Below are positions 8,501-51,950 of a DNA stretch of 64,000 nucleotides, piece by piece. The translations under genes were made by a program, and so were the position numbers. The stretch lies in assembly GCA_964106645.2 (NCBI GenBank), contig OZ067038.1. One strand, written 5' to 3'. Numbering within the stretch: position 1 is the stretch's first letter; every line of letters begins with the position of its first letter. The notes beneath the pieces were generated by a model. That model had not been told where the DNA came from. It searched no databases and saw nothing but the letters and a program-made list of their open reading frames with translations. The stretch comes from Podarcis pityusensis (taxonomy: Eukaryota).

Positions 8501-9794
8501 TCAGTATCGGTGTGGCTAAGTGGGATCTTATCAAGGGGAGAAGGGTAAAGAGAGGCAATGTATGAATTTTGAATATATTCAAGGCTATTTATGTATTAAG
8601 ATTTTATTTTGAGCTATGTTTTGGTTTCCGATTTAATTATAAGAGAATGGAAGCCTGAAGAGCACTTCTAGATTTTCTTTGCTAATAGAACACAAAACCA
8701 AATAGTCAACAGCAACAGTCTGGTCAGTAGCTAAATAGAAAAATAAGCGTGCTGTGCTAAAATATTTTGTTAGATATAGATGTTAATCAAGTTGGGATTG
8801 TAGCCTGCTACAAGTGAATTAGACCTGGTGTGCATGAGTGTGCTAATGCTTTGGTGTTCTATATTTATATGCATTATACTTTTTATAGATGTCAATAATG
8901 ATCATTTTCTGGATGAGCAGGAGTTAGAAGCCCTGTTTACTAAAGAGGTAAGTGATGCACATTACATGGAAACTCTTCCTTACAATTAGTTGATATTTAA
9001 GGACTTCTTTCTATATAAAAATGGCAGCACTGGTAATATTTATGTATTCACCAAAGATGTGTTAAAGGCTATTTAAAAAAAAACCCAAAAAAAAAAACTA
9101 CCCAGGTCAATTATTCAAGGAAAAACAATATATTCTGGAACAGGGAGCAATACGAGATAGTTACTTTCAAACTTTGAAAGTCCATTGCTAAAACCTATAG
9201 ATGCAAGGGCAAAACATAAAAACTTCATACCAGGAACTGATGCCATTTACGAAATTAGCTATTGATTTCATATTCAGGCTGGGACTAGCTACCTGGCATG
9301 CATATTTCCAGTGTCTAGGCATAGAAATGCAAGGGGCTTTTACATATCTGTACATACAGAGTGGACCAATGCCCAAATGTCTTGGTAAGTTCAAAATTTG
9401 GATAGTTGATATACTGGTCCAGTCTGAAGAGGATAAGCCAAAAGACTTCAATTCAATTCAAACTGATTTTGTACCAATATGTATTTTATATTGGCATAAA
9501 AAGCAGTAATTTCTTGATTTGAAAACAGAAGCCAACTCTGTTTGACGTATTTATATAGTTAAACAATAACAGGGATGGATAATCTGTTTCAAGCATATTC
9601 CTTAAGTTCAGTGATGTATTTGCTTCTGTTTTAGCTAGAGAAAGTCTATGATCCCAAAAATGAAGAAGATGATATGGTAGAAATGGAAGAAGAGAGGCTA
9701 CGAATGAGAGAACATGTCATGAATGAGGTGAGGCCAAAACATCACTCTTTTATAAATAATTGTAGTAGGCAAAACCCTTTTGTTACCACATTCA

Positions 9795-17994: not shown

Positions 17995-18085
17995 ATGGAC
18001 TGGGGAGGTGGGTTGGCGGCCCGCAGGTGCCTCCTGCACGGCTTCTCGGTGTTCCTCTGTGGCGTCGTCGTCCTCCAGCCGGCAG
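17995..18085 (+). CDS. NCR3LG1: NCR3LG1-like exon 1, signal peptide [30 protein letters not shown]
   Basis: ATG (cccATGG) in a CpG island, hydrophobic leader, donor GCAG|gtaaac in phase 1 matching the IgV exon. Confidence 0.8.
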
Positions 18086-21000: not shown

Positions 21001-23735
21001 GCAACAGGAAATTCTCTGGCCTCTAGATGGCACTGTGAATCCCAGAAAAGCAGTTCAAGTTGAGAAAGAGAAAGAAAAAAAACAGTCGTTAAATTAAAAT
21101 AACCCTCAAGTCAGAGCAACAGCCTAATAACAGTTAGTGACAGGACATCAGCTTGATCTTTTCATTGCTAAAAACCATATAGGCTACACAAACATAAATG
21201 AAATATAGAAAAAGAAAGGGATCCTCAACATTTTGCCATTGTCTATCCTAAAATATTATTGATTGCCCATTCCTTAGTGTTAAAGATTAGAGCAAAGTTC
21301 ACAGGTGAAATATAGGAGACTATGGTTTAAGTTTTTGGTTTTTTGGCCCCATTTTACTACCAGGAACCCTGCTGCTGGCTTCTACTGGAGGGTCAGGTTA
21401 GTTGAATCCAACCCTATATTTCTAAAAGGGTCATTCCACACCAAATCACCTGGTGCCATGTGCTCTCACAATTTAGATTTTCTTCAGGGTTTTTTTGTTA
21501 TGTGTAGATACCTATGAGATAACCTCAAATTATTTTTAAAATATTTTTTGGTCTAAAATTGGGGGCAGGATAATTTTTTGAAAATTTCAATTTTCACGCG
21601 GTTTAGGCGGGTGGTGCTGTGGTCTAAACCACAGAGCCAGGTCTTGCCGATTGGAAGGTCGGTAGTTCGAATCCCCACAATGGGGTGAGCTCTCGTTGCT
21701 CGGTCCCTGCTCCTGCTAACCTAGCAGTTTGAAAGCACGTCAGAGTGCAAGTAGATAAATAGGTACCGCTCCGGCGGGAAGGTAAACAGTGTTTCCGTGC
21801 ACTGCTCTGGTTTCGCCAGAAGCGGCTTAGTCATGCTGGCGACATGACCTGGAAAAAGTGCCTGCAGACAAATGCCAGCTCCCTTGGCCAGTAAAGCGAG
21901 ATGAGCGCCGCAACCCCAGAGTTGTTCACAACTGGACTTAACTGTCAGGGGTCCTTTACCTTTTTAGGCTAATGCAATTTCTCTGTCAGTTTAGAAAAAA
22001 ACCTCCTGTTTCACTTATTTTTTAACTGATTGGGCCTATTTTGGTATCAAAATTAAGGTAATTGTGGTCTCTTTCAAAATAAGGTATCAAAATGGCATTA
22101 AGTGCCACAGGAAAGAGTCACTGACTATTTTGTTATTTTGTTTCCCATACATGTAATATGGGCAGTGATGAATCATAGCCTCCTACTGTTAGAAAGGTCA
22201 AAAGACTATTTGCAATAATGCTATTTTTTTTTTTATTTACGAAGGATCTCTGAAAGTGACAATGGAAAGTCGGATGGTGGCAGTCTTGGATACAGATGTG
22301 ATGATACCATGTGAGATCTCTGAATACAGTACTCCAGAGCTAAAGATTGCAAAAATTGCTGTTGAGTGGTATTGGAAGCCTTCTTCCAAGGAAGCGGAAA
22401 ATATAGTATACACCATTGTTTCTGGAGTGCCTAAATCTTATAGAAACGGTGCAAGAATGGATGAAAGTGAACTGATAAAAGGCAATGCTGCACTTTACCT
22501 CCCCCAAATACAGATTAGTGAAGAAGGAATATACAGTTGTTCTGTGACTGTTACCCCAGATTCAAATGAAGGAACCACTGTTGTAGAGCTAATTGGTAAG
22601 TATTTATGTTGTACAAGTTTGTAGAAAACTTACAGAGAATGAACTTGTACATTTCAGAATTTCCCAGTAGCTTTAATGTCTAACTAAGCATTATATAAGG
22701 AAATGTATGTGATATCACCCATCTTTAGAGAAAACTCACTTTGCAAGACAGTAATTTAGAACAGAGAACTATGGGGGTGCGAGAAGCATGCTTAATCCTT
22801 TCCCCCAAGCACCAAAATACATTCCAAGCTGCTTCAGCCTTCCCCTCCCCCAGGAGATGCAGGTTTGGAACCGTGTAGGGGTGGTTTGGTACAGCAAGAG
22901 AAAAGGAAAGTGTTAAACTTCTACCAACCTTTCTTAACTATAAATCACCTGCTTGGGAATCATGGAACTCTAGAATTGTAGAGTTGGAATGGGATCCCAA
23001 TGGAATCTCAACTAGATCATACATGGCAGATGGCTATCCAATCTCTGCTTTCAAACTTCCAAAGAAGGAGAGTCTGCTACCTTCCAAGGGAGTCTGTTCT
23101 AATGTCAAACAGCTCTTAAGAAGCGTATCTCTTTAAAAAAAAGTCACTTTGTGTTATGGAAAGGTATAGCTGACTCTTAAAAGTTTTGCTAAGCAATTTC
23201 TTATATACCAAGTGGGACCTGCCACAAAACGTCGTATTGTGGAGTGCTCCCACTAAGGCCTCCAGACACTCAGGTGGTATTCAAGATACCCCATTGCATT
23301 CTCTCTTCATCACCCCACTTTTTCATGCTCCCCATTCCCAACAGGTTGTCAGTATTTTGTGGCTACTAAGCATGCTCTTTTTTGGGGGGGGGGGATGCCT
23401 CCTTAAATTTCCCCCTGTGGTTGTTGTTTTACTTCTGCATGCTACTATCTCCTCCTTGTGTCTTAGTAGCCTTGTTTTGGTGTTGTCACTCAACACCTTA
23501 GCTCTAGTCGACAGACTGATATTATCATATATATTTGAAACACTTGAAGCCAAAGAATTGGCTGGTTAGTTCAAATGAATCTTTGAAAGTTAAGTCCACT
23601 CCCATTGCCTCCTTTGCCCTCACTGTGCTTTTAGAATTGCCAGATCACAAAAGCTACACTAACAATAGAAGCTGCCACTGACATAATTATCTTCTCAGGG
23701 TCTAGGTTCTAAATTGTAATAATCCTATATATAAG

Positions 23736-23769
<34 letters not shown>

Positions 23770-26700
23770 TACCTGTAAAATTTGTTCTGTATCCTTCAGT
23801 GTCAAAATGCTATGAAGGCAGCTTAACTACTTAAACAATACAATGATAAATATCGAGCAACAAAAACAACAAAGCAGAGGAAGAAAAAAATACCTTCATA
23901 TCAATGGCGGGGGAAAATAAACCAGCTGGTATTTTGAAGGACCTGGGAACATAAAATGCCCCTCCAGGTCCGTCATTTACCTTTCTGCTTTTTCCATCCA
24001 GTTGTGCAGAGTCGTTTGTAACTCTAGTTTTGCCCAATTTTGGTATTCTCCTGGACTCCTTTCTTCAGCTCTTTGCCTCCACCATTATTTCCCCCCAAGT
24101 TCCTTCTTGTTCATTTTTATTACAACCAAGGCTCTTGACCAGCCTTCTTAGTAGGCTTCCCCCCTTCCCACCCATAGCACACAGCTCCTCTTGACCCACA
24201 AAACACCTTCTTCAGGACTTCTCTTCTGTGCCTCTTGCCCCAGCCTTCTCCTTCTGCTTAAACAACCCTCACCCCAGGTTTTTAATTTAGACCATGTCCT
24301 TCTGAGAAATCAGGAGTATGAACTATGACTTTCACTTCACTTTCAACCAGCTTTTGTCTGAAAAACTGTATAAAAATGCAGTAAAAACAGAAAAAATGAC
24401 ACTTTTTATTATCTCCATGCAGCTCAACCTTCAGTAAAGCTGTCTCCCAGGACAGTTGAACTAGAAGACGGCAAGGAGAAGACCCTGTCATGCACAGTGA
24501 ATAAATTCTATCCTCTTTTGATTGAGGTTCATTGGGAGAAAAAATCTGAACGCGGCAATAATGAAGTTGTACCTGCAGATGATATTTGCACAGGGGTACC
24601 TGTGAAAAATGGAGATGGCACTTTCAATGTAACCAGTAAACTGGGGCTACAACCATCTTTACAGGATAATGGAAATGTCTATAGTTGTGTTGTGGGACAC
24701 AAATCATTTTCCATACGGCAGGCCTTCAATGCCACTTTGATAGTAACAGGTATTCCTTCTGTTGACCTTTTCTCCCTGTGTGTGTGTATGTGTATAATAG
24801 TGGGTCACATCCAACTGGTGTACTTCCATGAGTGTAGGGGCTTTTGATCCAGAAGGGGAGAGGATATTTGCCCACACACCCTGGAGCCTTCAGCACCTTC
24901 CACTAATTCTGCCCAATGTTCTGAAATGTAGCTTTCTCCTTTCTCCAAAGATTCATATTGTACTTACAAATGCATTAGTCTTTGGGACTTCCATGCTAGG
25001 GCATCACAAGGAAAGGGATAAAATATATTGTAATGCCTTTATACAAATCTATGGGAATACTGTGCACAGTTCTAGTCGCTGCATCTCAAAAAGATTATTG
25101 TGGAGCTGGAAAAGGTGCACAAAAAGGGCAACCAAAAATGATATTAGGGATGGAACAACTCCTTAGTGAGAAAAGGTTATGGCACTTGGGGCTTTTTAGT
25201 TTTTTTTTTAAAAAAGGCAAATATGAGGAAGGGACATGTTAGAATTGTATAAAATTATGTGTGATATAATTATCTGGGATGCGGGTGGTGCTGTGGGTTA
25301 AACCACAGAGCCTAGGACTTGCTGATTAGAAGGTCGGCGGTTTGAATCCCCGCAACGGGGTGAGCTCCCATTGCTTGGTCCCTGCTCCTGCCAACCTAGC
25401 AGTTCCAAAACACTTCAAACGTGCAAGTAGATAAATAGGTACCGCTCTGGTGGGAAGGTAAATGGTGTTTCCGAGCACTGCTCTGGTTCGCCAGAAGCGG
25501 CTTAGTCATGTTGGTCACATGACCCAGAAGCTGTATGCCGGCTCTCTTGGCCAATAAAGTGAGATGAGTGCCGCAACCCCAGAGTCGGTCACAACTGGAC
25601 CTAATGGTCAGGGGTCCCTTTACCTTTACCTTTATGTGTGATATGGATGGAAGTTAGTTCTCCATTAACACAATCTGGGATCATCCAGTCAAGTTGACTG
25701 GTGAGAGGTTCAGGGCAGACAAAAAGAAGTACTTTTTCATGCAACATATGCTTAACTTACAGAATTCACTGCCATGTGGTGGTCTGTTGATGGCCATTAG
25801 CTTAGATGGGTTTACAGTGTGATTGGACACAATTGTGGACTGTAAGCCCACCAATGGCTACCTCCAAAATCAGAGGTAGCATGCCTCTGAATATAACTTT
25901 CTGGCAAACAACAATATGAGAGGTCTTTATGTCCACTTTGGAAACCTTATAGTCATGCTAGACCAGATTAGTCTTTGGGCTTCTCCAGCTTTTCTTATGT
26001 GCAGTTGGAATAAATGAGGCTAAAATAACTTTGCCATGATTGAGTAGCTGAATATGAAATATTACTTCTCATCAAAAGGTTGCAACAAGGCTGAAACATT
26101 TTGCTATTTTGTGTGATAAGTAACAAGAACAATTTCTCTCTCTTTACAGAACCACCACCAAATTTTACCTGGTTGGCTGTGATACTTGTTTTATTATTAC
26201 TTGGTGTGATTCCTGTAATTCTGTACATAATGTACTTTAAGAAAAGTAAGTAATGGGAAACATTTAATTAATTGATTATTTAATTTTTTCAATTAAGAGA
26301 ATTCTATACTATTCATCAAATGTGGTTAAGGGTGGTTTACAAAAATAGATTAATATGAAACATAATACATGCACATATTCATTATTATTAAAGTAAAATT
26401 AGTATTTTTGTGAAATCTTAATCTTTGGTAAACTTAGGTCTGAAATGACAGTATTCAAAAAATCCTAGGCACCAGTACACCAGGCACCAAAAAATCTCCT
26501 TGCCTGTGGTTAAGAATTTTGACTAAGTTTTCTTTTAAGTGGCTAAGATTTCTTTGCTGAATCAGTTGGGGAAGGGCCATAACTCAGTGATAGAACATCT
26601 GTTTTGCATGCAAGAGGTCCTAACTGGTTAGTTCTAGCTTCAGCACTATCTTGGAGATGGATGGCTGTCAGTGACAGAGTGGTGGCCCTATGCCCCAGAT

Positions 26701-29700
26701 TTATCTGCTCACTAGAAAAGACTCATGGAGTCTATACAACTGAAGCTACTATTTGTTTTTTGTTTTTTAAATAATTTTTATTAAGATTTCAATAAAAGTT
26801 AAACAACAAAAAAAAGTTAAAATACAAAAACACGCAATACATAATCCAAAAAGAAAAAGAAAACACAGAAAACAAAATACAAAAAAAACCCTAAAAACAA
26901 ACAAACAGAACAATTAAAAACAGTATCACTTTTCCATTTCCGTTTTTGAATTTACTTATTTTCTGGACTTCCTCATACCTCCCTCTTTTGTATTCCAGTC
27001 CAAATTGTTTGTCCAGCAATTTCTTTTCCACTTTTTTAATCCCAATCTTTAATCGTAATATAATATAACATTAAATTTTTACCTCTTAAGTACCAAATTT
27101 CCATTTCCTTAAACATCTTTAATCCTAATCTTTAATCTTAGTCTATCAATAACTTTAACCTGTACAGCTGGAAACCACTTATTTTCGATCCAACATCACT
27201 CTAACATTCCTTAATTTTGCAATGTTTCTGAAGATAATCTTTGAATTTCTTCCAATCTTCCTCCACCAATTCTTCTTCCTGGTCACGGATTCTGCCAGTC
27301 ATTTCCGCCAGTTCCATATAGTCCATCAGTTTCATCTGCCATTCCTCCAGCATGGGAAGTTCTTGTGTCTTCCAATACTTTGCGATGAGTATTCTTGCTG
27401 CTGTTGTTGCATACTTAAAGAAAGTTCTATCCTTTTTTAACACCATTTGGCCGACTATGCCCAGGAGAAAGGCCTCTGGTTTCTTAGGGAAGGTATATTT
27501 AAATACCTTTTTTAATTCATTATATATCATTTCCCAGAAAGCCTTAATCTTTGGGCACGTCCACCAAAGGTGAAAAAATGTACCTTCAGTCTGAAGCTAC
27601 TATTTGACATTGCAAGTACTCAACTAGCAACCAATAACATCCACATGAAGTATGTCCTGGAATAGACCCTGAAGGTCATTTAGTCCAAGCCCCTGTCACA
27701 GATAAAGCACTCTTTCTCAGCTCTTTTGCTTTATTCTACATAATACAGAAATAGCACACTGCAAGATTCTTAATTCAGGACTACAAAGCTAACCAAAATA
27801 CTTGGGTGGGATATGTACAAAAGGAATAAGAAGGAATGCTTAATCTGTGGCTACCCTGCACTGAACAGGGAGTTGGACTGAATGACCTTTAAGGTGTTAA
27901 GGAATATAGCTAGTGTGTTAATTTCATTAGTGAGGGAAAAGCTGACTCACTGATTCATTTCCAAAATGCACCTGGCTCAATTTGACTTCTTTATCAATTT
28001 ACTGGGCAGATTTGGTTGCCCAGTCTTATTCCAGGACACGTCCTCTTTTTCAGGGGTAAAATTTCTGTCCAGGTAGATTTTTAAAATTTGCCCAAATGTC
28101 TCTGGCTATACTTTCTGGATGAGACATAGACTTGCTTTCCTTTTCTCTTCTCCTGTCCCCCTCAGCAATATATCACAGCTTCTATATCCTACCTGTGGTA
28201 GAGATATTTAAAACAAGTCGTCATAGCGTCCTCTTTGTTGCTCTTCAAAATATGGCTAACTTAGTAAGCATGCTACTATATGTATAAAAGGGCTCGGATT
28301 AGAGAATTGGTTGTGGGTCAGTGGCTGTTATCAGGAAGGGATGGATCATTGTGAAACACTTTGAGGAGAGCTCATCTGAAAAGAAGGCTGGCATATGGAT
28401 TTTGCTCAGCAAGGATTTTGAATTACACAAACTCCTCTGGGACCAAAGAGAGAAAAGCCTTTGTGCAACCTGTATATAGTGTGTAAATATAGAGTGTGTA
28501 TTTTGTGTGTGTCAGGTAAAACAACTGCTTAAAACAAGAACTGTTTTGGGTTGGTGAGCTAAGCAACTTTACTGAAGCTTCCAGGGCGCACACAGAGAGA
28601 GCAAGATTTATAGATTGAAGATAGCACCCCACATCACCATAAGGTTCTTTTAAACTCTTATTATTCTGTGGGAAAGGTGCACATAGCCAGTACACTTCCA
28701 TCCGTTCTGTGTTAATGGGTACTCATAACATATCATGGTGTCTTCTGCTTAAGGTGGAACTAATCACAACATAGGACATCTACTGCATATCCATCCATAT
28801 TGTCTAAATAACACCTCTGTTGAGGGTGTGACCTTTAACAGCTGCAAAACCCAGCATTTTGGAGCTTAAGAGAACATGGAACTTAATACAATACATTAAG
28901 CTGTTAGGTTTTTTGTTCACTGAACTGTCACTATTCAATGTCTTATTGCCACAGAGGAATTATGGAAGGAATTATCCTCCAAATCAGAATGATTCTTTGT
29001 GCAAATTCATATGCTGCAAACATCTTATTAAAATCCCTGCTCCTACCTTCTGGCTTTCTATCATATCATCCCCAACCCTTTAAAGCTTTAAACAGTCTTT
29101 GCTGAACTGGCTTCTTAAGTAAGGCTGTTGCTATACTCAACTGAACCTAACCTCAAAAATAAACTCTTCCTAATCTTACTGAGCCAACGCTTCATCCAGG
29201 ACTGTCTTTTTCTTCCAGTTATGCTTTACCTGATCTGTACTGCAAGCACTCTGGATAGGGACTGTGCCACTTGATCTTTGATACAGCATCTTGCATACAT
29301 TGCTATTCACCATGTAGCAGTCACTAGCATTTGCGATAGACTGAATGTGATCATTACAAAAAAGAAAAATAATGCTTTGTTGTAAACTGCAGTAAGAATG
29401 TTCCTCTTACAGATGACTTGTTATAATAGTATCCGTTGAAACACTGCTACAAGTTTCTACACCTGAAATTCTTTGTTTTGTTCTTTATAGTTCAACCAGG
29501 GATATTTTCAGCAACTGCAAATAAGGAATTGAAACATTTGGAAGAAGCACTGGTGGTGTTCTGGCTGCAAGGCTTTCGTCCAAAGCCTTTAGAAATAGTT
29601 TTTTTCTTAAAACTCCAAAGCAGGAATGAAAAACTGAAACTGTGCTCTTGGAATACTATGACAGGCAGCAATATTGAACACGGAGAAGATATGCCTCTTA

Positions 29701-30645
29701 TCACTGGAAAAGAAGAAGAAAGTTCTGATCTTGACAAGACGTTGAAGACCATGTTTACTTTTGAGCCAGCTTTGCAAGTAAAACAAAGGCGCACTTTTGA
29801 CGTTTCCTGCAAAGTCAACATAGTTCCAGATGTAAAGCATCTGGAGGAGTTTGAACTTATACTTGAAGTTAGACATGAGGCCTTTTCAGATCGTTTGTCT
29901 ACTGAAACAATATCATTTAAAGTCATAGGTAAGTAGGAAAGATGGGCTGAAATGATCACTTAGAATAATACTACATATTTCACTGGCTATTACAGTGGTA
30001 CCTCGGGTTAAGTACTTAATTTGTTCTGGAGGTCCATTCTTAACCTGAAACTGTTCTTAACCTGAAGCACCACTTTAGCTAATGGGGCCTCCTGCTGCCG
30101 CTGCGCCGCCAGAGCACAATTTCTGTTCTCATCCTGAAGCAAAGTTCTTAACCTGAAGCACTATTTCTGGGTTAGCGGAGTCTGTAACCTGAAGCGTATG
30201 TAACCTGAAGCGTATGTAACCTGAGGTACCACTGTATAAGAATTCTGTCAACAGATGAAAGGTGAGAGAGCTGCATGAATGCAGTGGGATACTTTCTGCT
30301 GCCAGTGATGATACACAAAGGGAAACAATGCAGGATTGTAGCTAAACTCTTTGATCAGTCTACAAAAAGTGAATGATAAAATGGGAAAGCAGCACAGGTG
30401 GCTTGTGTGGAGATTATTTTTCTTAATCTCGTTCAGTTTGACTAGTTTCTTATAACTTGTGAGCCCGTACGAAGGGTGAAGTGATGACCTTTAAAGCATT
30501 TCATGGTATAAGGCCTGCACGGGATTGTGTACTCCCTGCCTTCTTCAGATCAGAAATTCATGTGGACAAAAGAAAGTCCATACTTATTATCTTCTCCAGT
30601 TGCATTCTACTTGCTAATAATATCACTTTTTTGGTATGTATACAT

Positions 30646-30676
<31 letters not shown>

Positions 30677-33600
30677 CAGAATGTACTCCCAAAGTCTCCA
30701 AATTTGAATGTGAGCCTCCTGTACCAGAGTGTGGGAAACTCATCACATTATCTTGTTTAGTAGAAGATTTCTGCCCACGGGAGTGTGACGTTTGTTGGCT
30801 AAGAGGCAATAATGAGCCTTTGGATGCTATAAGTAACACAGAGGAGCCACAACTGGACCCAGGATCAAATCTGTATTGCAAGAAAAGCAGAGTATCCTTT
30901 ATACCTCAACCAGAAGACCATGCAGTAGACTTTATTGTTCAAATCAACCATTGTAAAAAAGTTATAAGACATAGTTACCCGCTCATGTTAAAAGGTGAGT
31001 ACTCGGCAAGTTCTTGTGCAATGAACCACTACTTGTGCTTTCCGTCTAAATAGTTTATCTAAAACTGGAAATACATAATGGAGTTGTTTCCTGTATCTGT
31101 ATTTGTTGTGGGTCTTTGATAACTTGTATTGAAAGAGATCACTTGTATCTCTTTGTCATTAGGTGATGCTATCGTGGGTTTGTCACATGGAAAACATGAC
31201 TCAGAGAGTCCTTGCACAGAAGTGTCAAGTCCTTCATAAAATTAGTATAGAAGTTTTTCTGGGTGAAATCAGCAAAGCAAGTTCATAGCTGATATGTGCA
31301 TCTTCGTAGGAAAATTATAGTGTCGGCTAGTGGCAAATTGCAAACATGACAAGCATTATAGTGCAGCCAATTTAAAACATGAATCAATGAGAAATCGAAG
31401 CTCTCATCTGTTTCAGTCCAGAAGGTCAAAGATGGCACACTTTGTATTCCAACCAGAATAAAACACAGCCATGTTTAATCATATGCATTTAATAACAAAT
31501 AATATATATGTGGGTGTCATATATGTTAGAATATGTTACAGACTGCCAAGGCTCTCCTGCCATTATATGCATACTCTTATCATTTCTCCATATACCGTAT
31601 TGTGTGGATTTGAACTAATTAAATCTGCAAAGCTTTTAATTTGTAGTTTTGTGAGATTGCTCTGATTTTACAAAAGATCTGTCTCCCAGAGTTCATTGGG
31701 AGAAGCCATAACATCTAAACTAGGCAAACTTGGTAGTTTTGACAAGACTGTGGTGTTAATTGCTCATTCTATCCTTTAATTTCAACCAGGGTTGTAGTGA
31801 GAGTGAAAGGATAAGCAACTGTAATTTTTCCAAACCTAACTCTTTTTGAGAGAGACTGTGTGTATATATCCATGTGTGTATCCACTGAGGATAGGAGTTC
31901 ATGCATCATATGAAGTAGCCTGTAGTCCATGAAAGTTTATGCCATGATATATGTGTTATAAAGTGACACTAGGCTAGCTTTTGCTGTAACATACTAATGT
32001 GACACCCCATCTGCCATTTGTCACTTCTAATTTACTGTTTTGCAATGCCAGATGTACTAGCATTCTTTGAATTTAAACTAATATTTTCAATTGTTTGTTT
32101 TCTCTGCATCTGCATTTTTTAGGTTACCCCAAAGTTACAGATATTACGTGTGAACCAAATTATCCTAAATATGGAACTACATTGTCTCTAACCTGTAAAG
32201 TCACAGATTTCTTTCTTAGCAACATAAATATTCAATGGCTTGATGGGGGTATTGAAATAAGTAAAGGTGTGGTCACAGAGGGGCCAGTCAAAGACTCAAA
32301 TGGCTGCTTGAAGTTGTCTTCTGAGCTCCAGCTGATACCAACTGCTTTGGATCATAATAAGTTCATTATTTTCAGTGTGACATATGGCGACCTGAAAAAG
32401 CCCATTATTAGAGATGTGTATCTAAAGCTCCCAGGTACGTACTGAGAGTCCTTTGGGTTCTTTCAACTTTTGGCAAATGGCAATTTGAGCTTGTTTATTT
32501 AACAAAATTTGTAAACCACTTAATTTTAAACATGTTGTTAAGTGATTGTAAAAATGTCTAAGTGGTTTGCATAAAATAAAATGTATATTAAATTGAGGAT
32601 CAATGTAGTATTATGATATAAAGCAGTTCCCTTTGCAACAAGGGAGGTTTGACATGTTTGTGTACTCTGATAGGTGTACCATATAGCCATGTCTCTACTA
32701 GCAGTCATGTGTCCCTAATATCTGCCAGTTTTGTTTGTTTTTTGAAAGTCCAAACTTCCTTGCAGACTTGCATTTAGTAGTTCTGAAGATTCCCTGGTAA
32801 AAAAATCAGGTAAATCTAATAAAAACTAAAAAACACACACCATATGTTCACACATAGGCACTGATGTTACTAGTTCACCCCAAGTTTTTGAAAATCAAAA
32901 ACCATATTCTCAGATCTATATTCATTGAAGATGAATATCCTTGCAACCCTGCTGATCTGAAGTGTGATTTAAACAATGACACATTTAAATCCTTCATAAA
33001 ATTCCTGTACTTTTTAGAGGAAAGTTATAGAATAGATTCACATTGGGGAAGGGCAGTAGAATATCCTAGGTTTAGCCCCTAGCATTTCCAGGCAGGGCTG
33101 GAAATATCCCCTGCTTGAAACTGTGCAGAGCTGCTGGCAGACACTGTAAACAACACTGAACTAGATGGATTAATGGACTGACTTGGTATAAGGCATATTT
33201 TTATGTTCCTGTTGTCTTGTATTCTCACTTCAAGTACATCCTTTCCTTTCCTCCCCATTTAGTTCACCGCCCTGAGATGTCTGAAATAAAGGAAACAGCG
33301 CAAAACAGTGAGAGCATCTCTTTGGAAACTGTCATATCAAATTTTGCACCTTGCAACATAAAAGTGACATGGTATGAAGAATGGGAAAAAATATCTGAAG
33401 ACAATCCCAGGAACATTCAGATTGGAGAAAACAAGTTAGGTTATTTTGTAAGCAAATTACAGTTTAGTCCAAAAGGAAAAGACTCCAAAAAGACAATCAG
33501 ATGTGAAGTTTTTCACCAAGCGACACAGGATTTTAAAGAAACAAGCTTTGTGTGGGAAAGGAAAGGTAAGAACTTTTTTTTTTATGTTTTCAGCGCAGAA

Positions 33601-35497
33601 TGTACAGAATTTATGTAAGGGATTCAGACATGTCCCTCCAAAAAACACTGCTAATGGGGGAAAAGGTGATTCCTCTTCTCAATTAAGCACTTCCGTTACT
33701 TAGGACTCAGCTACAATAGTAAAAAAACAAGAGAGTTTTAAATGCATTATAAACATGGAACACCAGGTGCACTGTAGAGCACAATACTTTTCTATGTGTT
33801 TTACATAGAGTTTTTTCTTTTGTTATAACAATTTAATTTATAATTTAATTATAGCGTTTCCCCCCCTGTGTGTAGATACACCCTCGGTCATGGCTGAAAG
33901 ATGGCTTTGTAGTCTTTTGGGTAGCTTATGATTTTCTCATATTTAATAATATTCTTCAGAAGACAAGTGTATCTGGTTGTTATGTCAACATAATGCTCTT
34001 ACAACACACCTGGTTTTAGAAATTTTGTCTTGAATTCATCAGAGAACTAGATTTTGAATTTTTTCCATGAATATTGCTCTGACTGTATCTCTCCCCACTA
34101 CAACCCCCCAAATGCTACCCTTGGAAGGCAGTTGGCTAATTGCAGTTGAAAGCGTGTTGATTCAGTTGAGTAGCATTTTTGCTGTAAGTATTTCTGTTAC
34201 GTGACATGATGCCTGCCCAAGGCCTAATATGTTATTTCTTCTTTTAAACAAGATGAGCCTGATAGCCTTGACAGCATGTCTACAGTGAGTGAAAACCACG
34301 GTGAGTATTGCACCTCACGTGTAGGTAAAATGCAGGTACATGACACATTGACTCAGTGGTTTCATATCCTGTTTTTGCAGTCCCAGTTAAAATCAGAAAA
34401 CTGCTTAGATGTTTCTTGGAGGAGGCAGTGGGAGAAGAGAGCACTTGGACAATCTTTACTCTGCTTATAAACCATTATTTATTAAAGTGAGATCATTACA
34501 TCTCAACCAGACCATTAAGTTACTCTAAACGTGCACATTATTTTCATAAGGGATGATCTGAAAGATCAGCTTAGTCCATTCTGTGAAACTTGTACGCAGG
34601 GATCTGCAAGCTTTCGTTTGGCATAAAAGCCTGCCACTATTTGTGGCCACAGTGACCACTCCTCTCAGCCCTCTGAAATGTACAAGGAAACAGGAAAGGG
34701 TGCAAAGGAGTTCCTCATGTCATGCTTCTATTTACGCCATTCCTATTCTGCTTAATGTATGACAATATATTTATATACCACTGGATAGTTTTTAAAAATC
34801 ATAAAAATAATAAAACAATAACAGGTTTGACAAAACAACTATGTGAAACATTAGTTTTAAAACAAGTAGTTTATGAATTTATATGCCACCATTAATATCT
34901 TAATAACTGAGTCTCTAACAACCGATAAAAGATACTGAAGACATATGAAAGACATTCATATATGCTTAACTGAACACATGAAAGTCCATCCAGATGAAAC
35001 TACAGATTGGGGCTTGAAGATAAAACTGTATCAATGTGAGCAGAAAGTTCAAATTATCTGACTTGAGGAAAATATGCAAATGATTGGAAACTGAACATCA
35101 CAACCAGGGATGCTTAATGTTAGCGAGATGCCTCTTCCAGGTATGTACTTCAAGAGCAGTTTCCTATTCAATTTCCTATTCCCTCTCTCTAGATTCTAAG
35201 TTACCAACTCAGCCTATGAAGATAGAATGTGTCACCAGCAACCCAAAGGCAGGCGAGGTGACTCTTCGCTGTTTTGTACCTGGAATAAGAGCAGAGGAAG
35301 CCATTGTTTCCTGGTTTAACGGAGTATATCCAGTTGATGATAAAATACAGAATGAAAACTGTGGCGATGGATCTGGTTTTATTTCGTATGTGAACATTAC
35401 AACCGAAAAAGATAAGAAAAAATATGAAATCGAATGTGCAGTTTATGTAGATGCAAATGATGAAACCTTGCGTGAAACCTTTGATTTAGAACTTTGA
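17995..35497 (+). CDS. NCR3LG1: NCR3LG1/B7-H6-like type I membrane protein with five extra post-transmembrane Ig-like domains, predicted 861 aa; exons 17995-18085, 22245-22595, 24423-24749, 26150-26245, 29491-29928, 30680-30994, 32123-32434, 33263-33565, 34253-34300, 35193-35497
   Basis: Syntenic position between NUCB2 and KCNJ11. IgV (SLKVTM...IPC...VEWYWK...[26 protein letters not shown]) and IgC1 (CTVNKFYP...[14 protein letters not shown]...YSCVVGH) resemble B7-H6. All introns are GT-AG phase 1, and the summed CDS of 2586 nt is one open frame. The B7-H6 identity is strong; joining of the post-TM exons is inferred. Confidence 0.85.
18364..18591. mobile_element. Penelope-like element remnant in inverted (palindromic) arrangement with 12-bp TSD
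   Basis: TSD TAACGAGAGTAA at 18352-18363 and 18592-18603; perfect inverted repeat 18403-18588; terminal sequence of the type found in reptile Penelope elements (family assignment from memory). Confidence 0.75.
18498..18537 (+). ncRNA. Minimal type I hammerhead ribozyme motif (mirror copy on - strand at 18454-18493)
   Basis: GGUAU-CUGAAGA-A-GUGUGC(UU)GCACAC-GAAA-GC-UC-AUACC: stem I GGUAU/AUACC, CUGANGA and GAAA core, stem II, tiny palindromic stem III (AGCU). Confidence 0.65.
18971..19640 (-). mobile_element. CR1 LINE 3' end, internally deleted
   Basis: ORF 19045-19446 [16 protein letters not shown]...[11 protein letters not shown]...[10 protein letters not shown] is the CR1 ORF2 C-terminus; ATGATTC-type tail; joined to an upstream ORF2 segment ([10 protein letters not shown]...KKWKRG). 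Confidence 0.9.
19711..20027 (-). mobile_element. L1-clade 3' UTR fragment with poly(A)
   Basis: T-run and TTTATT at the left end, A-rich body like the L1 at 26756-27590, flanking direct repeat ttattattattaacta. Confidence 0.55.
20050..20900 (-). mobile_element. Old L2-like LINE fragments
   Basis: Motifs such as tttaaggctttataggtcaaaaccagcactttgaattgggcccagaaactaattggcagccagtgcag, with a related copy near 12150-12260. Confidence 0.5.
21607..21963 (+). mobile_element. Sauria SINE
   Basis: tRNA-like head (GGTTCGAATCCC-type B box), body GTGCAAGTAGATAAATAGGTACC, (ACCTTT) tail. Confidence 0.9.
22245..22595 (+). CDS. NCR3LG1: NCR3LG1-like exon 2, IgV domain
   Basis: Canonical B-strand Cys, C-strand Trp and EEGIYSC; T-rich tract with AG acceptor; donor G|gtaag. 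Confidence 0.93.
22965..23120 (-). mobile_element. CR1 3' fragment
   Basis: Similar to 18980-19150 (gagttggaa...ctctgctt...tccaaagaaggagag...aacagctctta). Confidence 0.65.
23740..23770. repeat. (TATG)n microsatellite
   Basis: Direct reading. Confidence 0.95.
24423..24749 (+). CDS. NCR3LG1: NCR3LG1-like exon 3, IgC1 domain
   Basis: [20 protein letters not shown] and [10 protein letters not shown]1-set motifs; both Cys present; cag| acceptor and |gtattc donor. Confidence 0.93.
25000..25870 (+). mobile_element. Decayed CR1 ORF2 3' fragment interrupted by a Sauria SINE
   Basis: gagctggaaaaggtgcacaaaaagggcaaccaaaatgatatt (ELEKV..RATKMI-like), continuing after the SINE as aggttcagggcagacaaaaagaagtacttt. 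Confidence 0.6.
25276..25633 (+). mobile_element. Sauria SINE, full length
   Basis: GGGATGCGGGTGG start, (ACCTTT)n tail, TSD-like ttatgtgtgatat at 25255-25267 and 25632-25644. Confidence 0.92.
26150..26245 (+). CDS. NCR3LG1: NCR3LG1-like exon 4, stalk + transmembrane helix ([32 protein letters not shown])
   Basis: Strong acceptor tttctctctctttacag|, donor A|gtaagt, 96 nt phase 1-1, about 23 hydrophobic residues followed by KK; too short to appear in the ORF track. Confidence 0.88.
26756..27590 (-). mobile_element. 5'-truncated L1-clade LINE (ORF2 C-terminus + 3' UTR + poly(A))
   Basis: [17 protein letters not shown] zinc-knuckle region leading into ORF 27201-27530; perfect 16-bp TSD ctgaagctactatttg at 26740-26755 and 27591-27606. 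Confidence 0.9.
29491..29928 (+). CDS. NCR3LG1: Post-TM exon 5, degenerate Ig C1-like domain (146 codons)
   Basis: ttctttatag| acceptor, G|gtaagt donor; FWLQGFRP and LEVRHEAF echo C1 motifs CxxxGFYP and CxVxH but lack the Cys. Confidence 0.8.
29993..30234. mobile_element. Tigger-like MITE, family A
   Basis: TA-CAGTGGTACCTCGGGTTA...TAACCTGAGGTACCACTG-TA. Confidence 0.9.
30645..30676. repeat. (TTTA)8 microsatellite forming a splice-acceptor tract
   Basis: Direct reading; immediately followed by cag and the exon. Confidence 0.95.
30680..30994 (+). CDS. NCR3LG1: Post-TM exon 6, Cys-rich Ig C1-like domain (105 codons)
   Basis: tttacag| acceptor, G|gtgagt donor; [12 protein letters not shown]...VCWL...FIVQINH. 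Confidence 0.85.
32123..32434 (+). CDS. NCR3LG1: Post-TM exon 7, Ig C1-like domain (104 codons)
   Basis: ttttttag| acceptor, G|gtacgt donor; [11 protein letters not shown]...IQWL...LSSELQLIP. Confidence 0.85.
33263..33565 (+). CDS. NCR3LG1: Post-TM exon 8, Ig C1-like domain (101 codons)
   Basis: ccccatttag| acceptor, G|gtaag donor; [14 protein letters not shown]...IRCEVFH. Confidence 0.85.
34253..34300 (+). CDS. NCR3LG1: Putative 48-nt linker exon 9 ([16 protein letters not shown])
   Basis: Pyrimidine tract + aacaag| acceptor, CACG|gtgagt donor, frame-preserving phase 1-1; no homology support. Confidence 0.5.
35193..35497 (+). CDS. NCR3LG1: Terminal exon 10, Ig-like domain with both Cys, stop TGA 35495-35497
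   Basis: ccctctctctag| acceptor; VTLRCFVP...VSWF...YEIECAV; ends ETFDLEL*. Confidence 0.8.
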
Positions 35498-35509
35498 GAA
35501 ATCATTGTA

Positions 35510-36394
35510 CAGTGGTGCCCCGCTAGACGAATGCCTCGCAAGACGAAAAACTCGCTAGACGAAAGGGTTTTGCGTTTTTTCAGCTGCTTCGCAAGACGAA
35601 TTTCCCTATGGGCTTGCTTCGCAAGACGAAAAACGAAAACGTCTTGCAAGTTTCTTTCCTTTTTCTTAACACCATTAATACAGTTGTTTGTATCGAAGTT
35701 GACTTCGAAGAGCAACTCATAGAACGCGGTGTGGTAGCCTTTTTTGAGGTTTTTGAAGACTTTGGTGATTTTTGAAGCTTTTCCAAAACTTCTTTTGCAC
35801 CCATTTGGTAAGTTAAACTTTTAAAACTTTTTTGGGGGGTTTTGGATTTTGGGTTGGGGTGTTTGGAATTCAAGGACTTGGTGTTGGGGAGGGGTTTGCA
35901 AGAATCTGGAAGCTTGTGTTTTTTTTCCTGCATTTTTATGATTTTCTGTGACCACTGGGCCACTCTGCTGTTTTTTTAAAAAAATTCTGGATTTGAATTT
36001 CTGTGTGGTGGGTGGCTGGGGGAACAGTTGAGGAAGGGGTTCTTCAGCAAGAAGCAAAGAGTGGAAGAGGAACCTTCTTCGAGTTGTCCCCCAGAGTCTT
36101 AGAAAATGTACTGTACACTTTGTTGATTTTTTAATGTTTTTCTGTCATGTTTAGAAACTTAATTTATTGTTCCTTCAGTTTTTGAAATGCTCTTTACAGT
36201 ATGTGTGACTTTAAAGAGCACTTAATAAACTCTTGTTGTACCAAATTTGGCTTTGTTTGGACTTTTTTTGACCATAGGAACGCATTAATTGAATTTCAGT
36301 GCATTCCTATGGGATTTCGTGCTTCGCAAGACGAAAAATTCGCTAGACGAAAAAACTCGCGGAAGAATTAATTTCGTCTTGCGAGGCACCACTG
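35510..36394. mobile_element. Tigger-like non-autonomous element, family B (long copy), 12 bp after the NCR3LG1-like stop codon
   Basis: Same TIRs as 6463-6820, with TA flanks. Confidence 0.88.
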
Positions 36395-38117
36395 TATAAA
36401 GACAGTGAATATACAAAAAGAACCACAGTAAAAATCTACTGCAGGCTGCTTTCATACATCCCCTGCTTGCTTCCATGAGGTGTGTGGGTCCTGCCAGTCC
36501 TGTTTTGTGGGTCCCCACAAAATTGATGGGCATTCCCATTCAAATGGTGTGTGTGACCTCATCATGTGATTGATTATGTAGGGTGGGGCTTACCTGGGCT
36601 CTCACAAAATTTTATTCAAGTTGGCACCCCTGCTTTGAAGCCGTATGTGAAGAAAGCCTGCTTATATTAATGAGGTTGTAATGTATATTATGTAATATAA
36701 TGAAATACTGTATAGCATAATATAATGTATGGGTGATGATGTTGTTGATGATAAGTCTCCACTCTGGTTCAGTGATAAGCTGTAACAGGACGGTGGTAGA
36801 ATTTTCAGTACACAAAAGAGGGACTGAGGGTAAGCATATTTTAATTGGTGGATATATCTAGCTGAGCACTGGCCAGCAAAGCAAGTTCAGGAGTTGCCAT
36901 TGAGCAGGACAGGAAGGAGTCAAAATAGACTTGTACTTAAATAAATCAGTAAAGGACCTAGCTCAATGGTAAAAGAAGGACCATAGCTCAAGTGCAGACC
37001 TTGCTTGCAGATTCAGTTCCCAGCATCTCTCAAGTAGGGTTGGGATGCACTCCTGCCTGAAACCCTGAAGAGCTGCTGCCAGTCAGTGTAGACAATATTG
37101 AGCTGGATAGACCAGTTGTCTATCTCAGCGTAAGGCAGCTTTTGTGTTTCTATGTCTGATAGAAAACGCTTCCAGCAGTGACCTCATTGGTTAAGGCTTA
37201 ACTGGGATGGAAAGAAAAGGAGCAACCTGTATTACTATGTTGAAGTAACTAGGTAACCTTGCCCATAATATTGAAACAAACAAATGTTGGTATATTTGCT
37301 TAATGTAATAGCTAATTGCCTTTATACTGCACCTGTACTCTATTGTCACCAGGTTATTGGTAAGTTAAGTGTCTAGAGGGAGTAAGGGATGGTGGCCATG
37401 GCACAGATTTAGGAGAACTTTTGGAGTGGAAGTTGAATGTTATTATTGTAGAGAAAGTACGGGGGGATCCCTTCCCTCCACACCCTGCATAATGGCTTGA
37501 AATTCAGTTTTCAGAAGCTTACTCCCAAACAAACCTGCCCAAGTAATGAGCTCATCTTCAGGGGCCTTGATCAGAAGTTAGACAGCTGGCAGAAAGGGGT
37601 GGGGGAGCATCTTGTAGAAGTGTCTCTTCAGAGATGTACAACTGGTGCCAAATAGGGATGTGAGCACTTGCAGCAAGGAGCACCCCTGCTCAAATTAAAA
37701 AGCAGTTTAAAGGCAGCATAGTCACTCTTGGAAGCTTCCTCCCTCGATTCTGCTCCCTCGAGCCCTGAGCTCTGTGCCTTCTATCACACCCTTGAGTGTC
37801 ATGTTCAGGATAGCTGCTGTCCTGCCATAGGAATGTAGGAAGTTGTCTTATACTGAGTCAGACTATTGCCCCAGGTCACTTAGTATTATTGATACTGACT
37901 GGCAGTAGAGTTTCAAACAGGGCCCTTTCTCAGGGTCTACCTGGTGATGCCATGGACTGAACTTGTAATTCCCTTCCTTCCTCCTTGATTCCCAAGGTGA
38001 GTGTTTTCTCCTTGAGGACAGGTAGTGAGCATTTGCTGAAAGTATTGAAGACCGCAACAGTGTCATGCTATTCAGGTTTACTCAGAAGTAAGTGCCATTG
38101 TGTTTAGTAGGGCTTAT

Positions 38118-50232: not shown

Positions 50233-51441
50233 TCAGGAAGGTTCATCGGATATGCAAAACATGGGCTTTAACCTGACAGACCTTTTCCTAATAGTGCCCC
50301 GAGGTGACAAGGAGATGCTGTCCAGGATGCTCTGGTTTTCCTCCAGTTGCCTGGCAGTGCAGCTTGGGGTGGGCACCTTCACAGTGTTGCCAAACTTGGA
50401 GTAGTCTACCGAGTACTGCCCATCCTCTTCGGTCACGATGGGCACAAACCTTTGTCCCCAGAGGATCTCGTCGGCCAAGTAGGACGTCCTGGCTTGAGTG
50501 GTGATGCCGGTGGTTTCCACCACCCCTTCTAGGATGACGATGACTTCCAGATCCTCGTGGTGGTGGAGGTTGTCGGGGGCCACGTCGTACAGAGGGCTGT
50601 TCCTGTCGATCACGTGGCAGATGATGAGCGGGGAGACCAGGAAGATGCTGTTGCCCCCTACCGGGTTCTCCATCTGGATGTCGATCTGGTGGAGGGGCAC
50701 CACCTCCCCCTCGGGGCTGGCCGTCTTCCGCACCACCTGCATGCGGATGGTGGCGCTGATGATCATGCTCTTGCGCAGATCGCCCACGCGCAGCATGAAG
50801 CAGAGCTTGCCCTGGCGGAGCGCGATCACGGCGTGCTTGCTGAAGATGAGCGTCTCGGCGCGCCGGTGCGCCTGGGCCGTCTTCATGAAGATGCAGCCCA
50901 GCATGATGGCGTTGATCACCAGGCCCACGATGTTCTGCACGATGAGGATGAGGATGGCGGCGGGGCACTCCTCGGTCATCATGCGCCCGCCGAAGCCGAT
51001 GGTCACCTGCACCTCGATGGAGAAGAGGAAGGCCGAGGTGAAGGAGCGGATGTCGGTCACGCAGGGCACGAAGTCCTCCGCGCCCCCGTCGCCGCCGCCG
51101 CCGCCCGGCTGCAGGTGGAGCTGGCGGGTGCTCTGGTCGAGGTCCCCGTGCGCGAAGGCGATGAGCCACCAGACCATGGCGAAGAGCAGCCAGCTGCACA
51201 GGAAGGACATGGTGAAGATGAGGAGCGTGTGGGGCCACTTGAGGTCCACCAGCGTGGTGAAGACGTCCTGCAGGAAGCGGCCCTGCTCGCGGATGTTCTT
51301 GTGGGCCACATTGCACGCGCCGTTCTTGCCCACGAAGCGGGCCCTCCTCTCCCGCGCGCGGTAGCGGGACGGATCCGGGACATCCTCGGCCAGCCGGGTC
51401 AGCACATACTCCTCCGGGATGATGCCCTTCCTGGACAGCAT
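50233..51441 (-). CDS. KCNJ11: ATP-sensitive inward rectifier K+ channel Kir6.2, single coding exon, 402 aa
   Basis: [20 protein letters not shown] start in a strong Kozak context (gcccgccATG), TIGFG selectivity filter, [26 protein letters not shown]-terminal RKR ER-retention motif; lies immediately downstream of ABCC8. Confidence 0.98.
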
Positions 51442-51950
51442 GGCGGGCCTGCGCTCTCCTCCTACAGCCCCCGGTCCGTGGCTGCGGCGGCGGGGACGCT
51501 GTCGGAGGGAGCCATCGCTGCTGCTGCTGCCGCTGTGCCTCCTTCGCCGCCCCTCCGCCTGCCCTGGCCGACTCCCCTTCCCCGCCCGCCTCGGCAAGCC
51601 CGACGCGCTCCCCCAGCTGCGCACGCCAATCACAGCCCTCGCCGCCTTTCCGCGGCTCGCTCTCGCAGCCAACCAGCCCGCCGCAAGCCGGGATCGCCTG
51701 CCTGCCTGCCTGCCTTGAGCTGCCTTCTGGAGAAGCCGGCGGCAGCGGAGGAGGCGCGCTCAGAGGCAAATCCGCTGGCGGCGGCGCCTGGGTCCTGATT
51801 CTCCGGAACGCTCGCCAGGCCACGCTGTCGCGCAAGGGAGCCCCATTATGGTGGGAGGGCCGCGCAGTCACAACAACGGCCCGAAGGAGCAGGGCGCGCA
51901 AAAAGGGAGAATAGGGTCACGGGGTTGCACGGGACCTTGGCGCTTATCTA
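51442..51950 (-). promoter_or_regulatory. KCNJ11 CpG-island promoter/5' UTR with GC boxes and a CCAAT box (51626-51630 on +)
   Basis: Very GC/CpG-rich sequence upstream of the ATG; CCGCCC motifs near 51547 and 51582. Confidence 0.65.

What the first reader, a model, noticed from the sequence alone, without database searches (positions are those of the whole stretch)
26150..35497. B7-H6-like protein with five Ig-like domains C-terminal to its transmembrane helix (predicted cytoplasmic Ig array)
Seen: after signal-IgV-IgC1, a 96-nt TM exon ending YFKK has no stop codon and splices in phase 1 into five ~100-146-codon exons with Ig C1-type motifs (plus a possible 16-codon linker), giving one 861-aa frame. 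No second hydrophobic segment or new signal peptide is visible. Established: B7-H6 is the NKp30 ligand with a V-C1-TM layout, the human tail is related to retroviral Gag, and C1-set domains are normally extracellular or luminal. Inference: this is a type I protein with about 570 aa of intracellular tandem Ig folds, possibly a signalling scaffold and possibly the ancestral tail replaced in primates. Similar tails may have been noted in amphibian or other non-mammalian B7-H6; the literature must be checked before claiming novelty.
Basis: partly seen in the sequence, partly recalled or inferred. Interest (0 to 1): 0.9.

Follow-up and report, generated by a model that had tools for sequence, protein, structure and literature searches.

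The report
Ancestral B7-H6 with cytoplasmic Ig array
This lizard gene for the NK-cell ligand B7-H6 has five immunoglobulin-type exons spliced behind its membrane anchor, a layout found in gene models from chimaeras to alligators but not in the placental-mammal-type proteins found; the domains are predicted to lie inside the cell and carry a conserved motif that likely controls how much ligand stays on the surface.

Summary
Confirmed and wider than proposed. Ten GT-AG exons give one 861-aa frame: signal, IgV, IgC1, TM, five Ig exons, one linker. A spliced 1525-nt contig from a close relative holds exons 2 and 5 exactly exon 3 plus the TM exon apart. The protein is the B7-H6 ortholog. All five tail domains are predicted beta-sandwiches. 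The layout occurs in lizards, snakes, turtles, crocodilians, amphibians, coelacanth, lungfish and cartilaginous fish; each of seven tail positions forms one supported clade, six of them including amniotes. Proteins grouping with a marsupial keep two domains; nine in the clade of the human-type protein have none. Cytosolic location is inferred from charge bias, no second TM, no sequon excess, and an acidic dileucine motif in a variable loop (24 of 26 reptiles; 18 of 52 other representatives, shuffles mean 3.1). Likely role: adaptor-driven internalisation plus scaffold. Topology and function are untested. RefSeq already holds these models, and the key paper (Flajnik 2012) could not be read, so the tail may have been noted before.

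The parts
17995..18085 (+). Exon 1 coding part, predicted signal peptide (aa 1-30); an in-frame ATG lies 63 codons upstream at 17806
   Evidence: covered by the spliced contig at depth 64.3
22245..22595 (+). Exon 2, IgV domain, B7-H6-like, Cys pair kept
   Evidence: Pfam V-set 32.5 bits
24423..24749 (+). Exon 3, extracellular IgC1 domain, Cys pair and two sequons
   Evidence: Pfam C1-set 57.3 bits
26150..26245 (+). Exon 4, transmembrane helix followed by YFKK, no stop, phase 1 donor
29491..29928 (+). Exon 5, tail domain T1: Ig fold with a long inserted loop, no canonical Cys in this species
   Evidence: no Pfam hit; pLDDT 87.7; Z 11.0, rmsd 2.0 over 98 residues to the B7-H6 C domain
29685..29702 (+). 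Acidic dileucine-type motif EDMPLI (aa 354-359) in the T1 loop
   Evidence: pLDDT under 50 at 352-360
30680..30994 (+). Exon 6, tail domain T3 (C1-set, no F-strand Cys)
   Evidence: 27.3 bits
32123..32434 (+). Exon 7, tail domain T4 (C1-set, no F-strand Cys)
   Evidence: 41.7 bits
33263..33565 (+). Exon 8, tail domain T5 (C1-set, no B-strand Cys)
   Evidence: 32.6 bits
34253..34300 (+). Exon 9, 16-codon low-confidence linker
   Evidence: joint into it in X1 and joint out of it in X1 and X6; pLDDT under 50 at 747-771
35193..35497 (+). Exon 10 coding part, tail domain T6 (both Cys kept), stop TGA 35495-35497
50233..51759 (-). KCNJ11 (Kir6.2), downstream neighbour used for synteny
   Evidence: E 1e-211 to Kir6.2 chains
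8885..8950 (+). EF-hand exon of a nucleobindin gene, upstream neighbour (NUCB2 by recall)
   Evidence: only PDB match is nucleobindin 1, E 4e-5

Best explanation
This is the lizard ortholog of B7-H6 (NCR3LG1) in its likely ancestral jawed-vertebrate form: a predicted single-pass type I membrane protein whose TM exon is spliced to five Ig exons, predicted to form a cytosolic rod, whose first domain carries an exposed acidic dileucine motif that likely recruits clathrin adaptors and would keep the ligand cycling through endosomes rather than standing on the surface. Shown: exon structure, splicing in RNA contigs, orthology, conservation of each tail position, the motif's excess over chance. Predicted: Ig folds. 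Inferred: cytosolic location (about 0.88), adaptor binding (about 0.65), that the remaining domains are a docking rod for cytosolic partners that tune the motif, and that the ectodomain binds an NKp30-type receptor.
For: Splicing: X1 record 3 (1525 nt, depth 64.3) has exon 2 at 891-1239 and exon 5 at 29-466; the gap of 424 equals exon 3 + TM exon + 1. Depth does not fall after the TM exon (64.3, 76.4, 87.9, 86). X6 record 9 (another study and organism) joins exons 5-10. Orthology: best PDB sequence match human B7-H6, E 8e-36 against 3e-22 for B7-H3; TM-score 0.92 on the target; reptile rows are sister to the mammal-type clade, SH-aLRT 95. Age: 71 of 88 V-C1-TM proteins have at least one Ig hit behind the TM; named ones include Alligator, Latimeria, Protopterus, Pleurodeles, Microcaecilia, Bombina, Xenopus, Callorhinchus, Hemitrygon. 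In a tree of 116 domains T1, T1b, T2-T6 and the outer C1 are each one starred clade. Tail domains are about as conserved as the outer C1 (lizard to chimaera 27-38% against 38%). Topology: net charge higher after than before the TM in 20 of 23 reptiles, equal in 3; no second window of KD19 1.9 or more in 47 of 47 other tails; sequons 1.6-1.7 times expectation outside, 0.8-1.1 times in the tail; 4 of 5 tail domains lack the B-F Cys pair that the outer C1 keeps in 22 of 22 complete rows. Motif: [DE]xxxL[LI] in the T1 loop in 24 of 26 named reptiles and, as an out-of-sample test, 18 of 52 other 50%-cluster representatives (shuffles mean 3.1, max 10 of 2000); D/E at -4 in 18 of 28 LL/LI sites against 4-11 at other offsets. 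Such motifs bind AP-1, AP-2 and AP-3 (PMC4584282, passages).
Against: No experiment on topology, localisation or binding. Three tail positions mostly keep both Cys over the whole range (T1b 6 of 7, T2 14 of 15, T6 9 of 12), as disulfide-bonded outer domains would. Database models that skip the TM exon exist in Bombina, Hemitrygon, Heterodontus and Varanus, so the tail may also be secreted. The motif is absent in strict form from 34 of 52 non-reptile representatives (24 of 52 in loose form), lies about 70 residues from the TM, and was first noticed by eye in the reptile alignment. Only 2 of 11 NKp30-contact residues of human B7-H6 (Thr127, Pro128; PMC3135353 Table II) are identical in the lizard alignment, and a lizard NKp30 gene was not sought. 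The RNA contigs come from related organisms and their runs are RNA by guess; most homologs are predicted gene models.
Confidence: 0.6

Rival explanations
1. The tail is cytosolic, but its main job is sensing or anchoring: it binds a cytosolic ligand or the cytoskeleton and clusters or switches the ectodomain from inside, as the B30.2 domain does for butyrophilins or the FnIII tail does for integrin beta4 (both analogies recalled). Sorting is secondary.
For: Five to eight folded domains kept position by position since the chimaera split is far more than a six-residue sorting motif needs; an invariant PxxP in T3 (23 of 23) and YxxL at 639 (19 of 22) in reptiles; frog copies vary from one to seven domains.
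Against: No enzymatic or known signalling domain in 39 scanned relatives apart from one tachylectin match and Gag matrix; ITIM-like motifs are not conserved (3 of 22, 3 of 13); the PxxP and YxxL sit in predicted structured parts.
Confidence: 0.25
2. The Ig array works outside the cell: the important product skips the symmetrical TM exon and is a secreted V-C1-(C1)n protein, the TM form being a by-product or retained form.
For: All internal exons are phase 1-1, so skipping keeps the frame; TM-less models in four distant genera; T1b, T2 and T6 mostly keep both Cys.
Against: The X1 contig includes the TM exon unbroken at depth 64.3; none of the 17 long Podarcis and Zootoca models lacks the TM; no sequon excess in the tail; a cytosolic-type sorting motif is conserved.
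Confidence: 0.08
3. The post-TM exons belong to a separate gene or are an annotation fusion, and B7-H6 ends just behind the TM (read-through gives YFKKSK-stop).
For: Read-through stop three codons into intron 4 and poly(A)-like hexamers in that intron; depth rises slightly toward the 3' end.
Against: One contig spans exon 2 to exon 5 with exact spacing; depth in the bin holding the TM exon (11.7) is explained by the exon itself (9.8) plus intron background (0.9-2.7); same joined layout in every major lineage sampled.
Confidence: 0.02
4. The topology is inverted: tail in the lumen or outside, V-C1 in the cytosol.
For: An upstream in-frame ATG at 17806 could add 63 residues before the leader; SignalP and DeepTMHMM could not be run.
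Against: V and C1 keep their Cys pairs and conserved sequons (19 of 23 at position 216); charge bias points the other way; the human ectodomain is extracellular (PMC2715080). An uncleaved anchor would still place V-C1 in the lumen.
Confidence: 0.02

Closest known systems
Human B7-H6 / NCR3LG1 (454 aa, PDB 3PV6, 6YJP)
   Same: Signal-IgV-IgC1-TM with phase 1 introns; best sequence and fold match; FG-loop Thr-Pro kept; clade position.
   Different: Human tail is about 170 aa and Gag-matrix-like (PF01140); the lizard tail is about 575 aa of Ig folds with a dileucine motif.
RefSeq NCR3LG1 models of non-mammalian jawed vertebrates (e.g. XP_053248709.1 Podarcis raffonei, XP_019332669.2 Alligator, XP_007885688.2 Callorhinchus)
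   Same: Same V-C1-TM-(C1)n layout; the P. raffonei model is 98% identical over exon 5.
   Different: Lacertids lack T2 (no remnant found in intron 5); amniotes lack T1b; snakes and Pogona models lack T6.
Butyrophilins (V-C-TM-B30.2); analogy recalled
   Same: B7-type ectodomain joined to a folded cytosolic beta-sandwich domain.
   Different: No B30.2/SPRY match in any protein scanned; here the cytosolic part is a tandem C1-like array.
Integrin beta4 (cytoplasmic FnIII pairs) and cytosolic I-set arrays of titin/obscurin; analogies recalled
   Same: Tandem beta-sandwich domains in the cytosol, often without the canonical disulfide.
   Different: Those are FnIII or I-set folds; these match C1-set, which is otherwise known from extracellular or luminal parts of Ig, TCR, MHC, tapasin, SIRP and B7 proteins.

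Membership tests
B7-H6 / NCR3LG1 ortholog | Type I layout with IgV and IgC exons and phase 1 introns (PMC2715080) | tested here: met
B7-H6 / NCR3LG1 ortholog | Closest solved relative and tree neighbour is human B7-H6 | tested here: met
   E 8e-36 against 3e-22 for B7-H3; clade of 20 rows with the human-type P0180, SH-aLRT 95, quick tree without other B7 families as outgroup
B7-H6 / NCR3LG1 ortholog | Lies between nucleobindin-2 and KCNJ11 (human order recalled, not from a call) | tested here: met
   nucleobindin exon upstream (NUCB1 versus NUCB2 not resolved), KCNJ11 downstream
B7-H6 / NCR3LG1 ortholog | Binds NKp30 | not testable with these tools
   2 of 11 human contact residues identical; lizard NCR3 not sought
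Human-type B7-H6 | Gag-like cytoplasmic tail | tested here: not met
   no Gag match in the lizard tail exons; present in P0180
Ig C1-set domain (tail domains) | Pfam PF07654 above cut-off | tested here: inconclusive
   met for T3, T4, T5; below cut-off for T6; none for T1
Ig C1-set domain (tail domains) | Two-sheet Ig beta-sandwich | tested here: met
   predicted only: mean pLDDT 87.8, strand pattern in all five; T1 alone matched to Ig chains, Z 10-11; V- and C-type hits tie for T1
Ig C1-set domain (tail domains) | B-strand and F-strand Cys pair | tested here: not met
   absent in T1, T3, T4, T5; present in T6
AP-binding acidic dileucine signal | [DE]xxxL[LI] pattern conserved above chance in an exposed stretch | tested here: met
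AP-binding acidic dileucine signal | Binds AP-1/2/3 and drives sorting | not testable with these tools
   needs binding and uptake assays
Butyrophilin | Cytosolic B30.2/PRY-SPRY domain | tested here: not met

The most novel reading that the evidence does not exclude
Jawed vertebrates have an undescribed class of immune membrane proteins with cytosolic C1-set Ig arrays: B7-H6 in its original form plus a second family of up to 2158 aa in frogs, reedfish and a turtle. The array is an intracellular stress or pathogen sensor that gates surface display of the NK ligand by masking or exposing the dileucine loop; placental mammals lost this gate and primates later took a retroviral Gag matrix piece as tail.
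Probability: 0.2. Interest if true: 0.92.

Novelty: new variant of a known kind. Interest (0 to 1): 0.7.

Why it matters
C1-set domains are the hallmark outer domains of antibodies, T-cell receptors and MHC; a seven-domain array kept behind a membrane anchor since sharks and bony vertebrates split would be a rare case of this fold working in the cytosol. It changes the picture of B7-H6, a cancer-immunotherapy target known almost only from its odd human form: the human tail would be a late substitute, and the ancestral protein would carry its own trafficking signal. Both the topology and the motif are directly testable with Xenopus or lizard cDNA and simple tags. It also bears on how C1 domains fold without their disulfide.

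Tried and rejected
Raw-read runs X22 and X23 had depth under 1 on the gene's exons and gave no listed joint; no listed holder was on record as RNA. Tail homodimer prediction (residues 289-745, two copies) gave no answer, score 0.00. Foldseek on the whole model only returned long Ig chains and B7-H6. ESM Atlas searches returned generic C1-set clusters and did not name the organism of P0073. tblastn found no remnant of the lost T2 exon in intron 5. Own-genome searches with the V and T3 exons found one copy each; other hits were 29-40% identical; the nearest cluster on contig C13 is a tandem V-C1-(C1)-C1-TM family with no post-TM Ig exon seen. ITIM and most YxxPhi motifs of the tail are not conserved. 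Earlier scan findings: none. Literature: ten searches listed no paper on a cytoplasmic Ig tail of B7-H6, but Flajnik 2012 (PMC3709836), Ohta and Flajnik 2015 (PMC4594805), Flajnik 2018, Ohta 2019 and two further papers were not held, so absence from print is not established.

Full report
Observation. Ten exons (17995-18085, 22245-22595, 24423-24749, 26150-26245, 29491-29928, 30680-30994, 32123-32434, 33263-33565, 34253-34300, 35193-35497) have ag/gt ends, all introns are phase 1, and the frame is 861 aa with one terminal stop. Besides the leader there is one hydrophobic segment (KD19 3.15); the best window behind it is 1.04. Pfam gives V-set and C1-set for exons 2 and 3, C1-set above cut-off for exons 6, 7 and 8, a weak C1-set for exon 10 and nothing for exon 5.

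Splicing. I laid 4 of 24 listed runs on 17800-36600. X1 and X6 are assembled contigs from two studies and two related organisms, RNA by the tool's guess, but their contigs jump introns. X1 record 3 (1525 nt, depth 64.3) has exon 2 at 891-1239 and exon 5 at 29-466; the 424 letters between equal exon 3 (327) plus the TM exon (96) plus one boundary letter, and variants in exons 1, 3 and 4 carry the same depth. The joint itself is not printed (244 joints not shown). Depth along the transcript is 64.3, 76.4, 87.9 and 86, so there is no drop behind the TM. X6 record 9 joins exons 5 to 10 and the 3' end. The linker exon is supported by listed joints. The raw-read runs X22 and X23 had almost no reads on the gene.

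Identity. Exon 5 is 98% identical to a Podarcis raffonei RefSeq model of 865 aa, so the window is from a lacertid lizard and the long form is already in databases, often named NCR3LG1. The best PDB match is human B7-H6, the neighbours are a nucleobindin gene and KCNJ11 (the human gene order is recalled), and in a quick tree of 88 V-C1 ectodomains the 8 reptile rows are sister to a 12-row clade holding the human-type protein P0180 and a bilby protein (SH-aLRT 95). The gene is single-copy in this assembly by two searches.

Range and age. A profile of 23 reptile proteins found 302 representatives at E 1e-30 or better, of which 150 were listed. Domain HMMs show V-C1-TM followed by Ig domains in 71 of the 88 proteins that passed my V, C1 and TM filters. 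I could name 20 representatives and more: alligator, gharial, turtles, coelacanth, lungfish, newt, caecilian, frogs, chimaera, rays, sharks. No bird or placental name appeared among the long-tail hits. For 18 chosen proteins I cut 118 C-type domains, dropped two truncated rows and built a tree: T1 (16 rows), T1b (7), T2 (15), T3 (16), T4 (15), T5 (14), T6 (12) and the outer C1 (17) are each one starred clade; 4 extra domains labelled X are not. Labels came from HMMs trained on reptiles, 12 were set by hand from position before the tree was run, and only 110 columns were used. The seven-domain tail therefore likely predates the split of cartilaginous and bony fish. Amniotes lack T1b, lacertids also lack T2, snake and Pogona models lack T6. 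P0073, unnamed but 63% identical to the bilby ectodomain and in a 100-support clade with it, keeps T1-T2; P0101 and P0121 look alike. None of the 9 rows in the clade of the human-type protein has an Ig tail, and only P0180 has a Gag matrix match (8 of the 9 were scanned plus P0162, all 9 in total); several are short models that may be incomplete. The human Gag-like tail is described in PMC2715080 (passages).

Fold. AlphaFold2 on P0001 with 58 sequences gives mean pLDDT 87.8 and beta-sandwich strand patterns for all five tail domains; pTM is 0.51, so their relative placement is not resolved. T1 alone (pLDDT 87.7) matches Ig chains, among them the B7-H6 C domain at Z 11.0, rmsd 2.0 over 98 residues, tied with V-type chains.

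Topology, inferred. With one leader and one TM the tail would be cytosolic. Net charge is higher after than before the TM in 20 of 23 reptile proteins and equal in 3; K/R counts agree in 35 of 47 others, 3 against, 9 equal, with windows of 13 after and 10 before, which favours the result. No second TM in 47 of 47. Sequons: 1.37 per 100 outside against 0.87 expected and 0.41 in the tail against 0.49; ratios 1.7 and 1.14 in the other set. T1, T3 and T4 lack the F-strand Cys and T5 the B-strand Cys in most lineages, but T1b, T2 and T6 mostly keep both, which does not fit as neatly. TM-skipped models exist for four genera; their read support is unknown to me.

Mechanism. In the reptile alignment I noticed that the variable loop of T1 keeps a [DE]xxxL[LI] motif, here EDMPLI at 29685-29702, in a stretch of pLDDT under 50. 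It is present in 42 of 83 T1-bearing proteins (5 with no loop counted as misses; shuffled loops mean 4.6, max 11): 24 of 26 named reptiles, one at a shifted place, and 18 of 52 other representatives with a loop (shuffles mean 3.1, max 10 of 2000), including chimaera, coelacanth and newt. Elsewhere in the tails the motif occurs 0.11 times per 100 residues. Five of 19 more distant long-tail proteins have such a motif 67-98 residues behind the TM. These motifs bind AP-1, AP-2 and AP-3 (PMC4584282, passages), which act in the cytosol, so the motif supports both the topology and a sorting role. I therefore favour a ligand that is internalised or held in endosomes by default, with the other domains as a docking rod; the sensor or anchor reading is the main rival, since a motif alone does not explain the kept array. 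NKp30 binding is assumed from orthology only (2 of 11 contacts identical; PMC3135353 passages and Table II).

Literature. Passages were read in PMC2715080, PMC3135353, PMC4584282, PMC11926128, PMC13262535, PMC6514059, PMC12227049, PMC4536121, PMC12619710, PMC10751288, PMC6795676 and PMC12272517, and the one held supplement of PMC3964593 was searched (no hit); none of the passages describes a cytoplasmic Ig tail. Ten searches were seen as listings only. The comparative papers most likely to mention it, Flajnik 2012 and Ohta and Flajnik 2015, were not held and I saw nothing of them. I have an uncertain recollection that extra Ig domains in non-mammalian B7H6 tails were remarked on there and put that at about even odds.

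Verdict. A real, expressed and ancient architecture; a new variant of a known protein rather than a new system; unusual enough to surprise most B7 and Ig-fold specialists, and cheap to test. Interest 0.7, lowered for existing database models, possible earlier mention and lack of direct topology data.

Noticed in passing
window 35510-36394: 885-bp element with terminal inverted repeats and TA flanks, 12 nt behind the stop codon; contigs of X1 and X6 skip exactly 887 letters here (empty site), so the insertion is recent or polymorphic in the 3' UTR.
   Followed up: partly
window 29993-30234: A similar short inverted-repeat element in intron 5, the intron where other reptiles have the T2 exon; no T2 remnant found.
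   Followed up: partly
window 17806: Upstream in-frame ATG in good context, 63 codons before the modelled start; the Zootoca model starts at the matching ATG but its middle part resembles another reading frame of the window, so the extension looks unconserved.
   Followed up: partly
P0079, P0097, P0109, P0116, P0150, P0151, P0163, P0167, P0168, P0174, P0177, P0183, P0191: A second, more distant family with V-(C1)1-2-TM followed by long C1-like arrays, 900-2158 aa; named members are from Dendropsophus, Spea, Erpetoichthys and Natator.
   Followed up: partly
P0085 (Heterodontus francisci): V-C1-TM followed by at least seven near-equal T1-like repeats; P0107 has V-C1-TM-T1 then a tachylectin match.
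   Followed up: no
G000:C13:34668000-34714300 (L012-L017): Tandem cluster of five V-C1-(C1)-C1-TM genes on the minus strand, about 30-40% identical to B7-H6 domains; family not determined.
   Followed up: partly
window 35193-35202: X6 has 12 more letters at the start of exon 10 than the window, matching 4 extra residues in the P. raffonei model; a small deletion in this genome.
   Followed up: partly
P0015 (Podarcis raffonei): 297-aa NCR3LG1-like models under two accessions, identical ectodomain but no TM and an unrelated end; not seen as extra copies in this genome.
   Followed up: no
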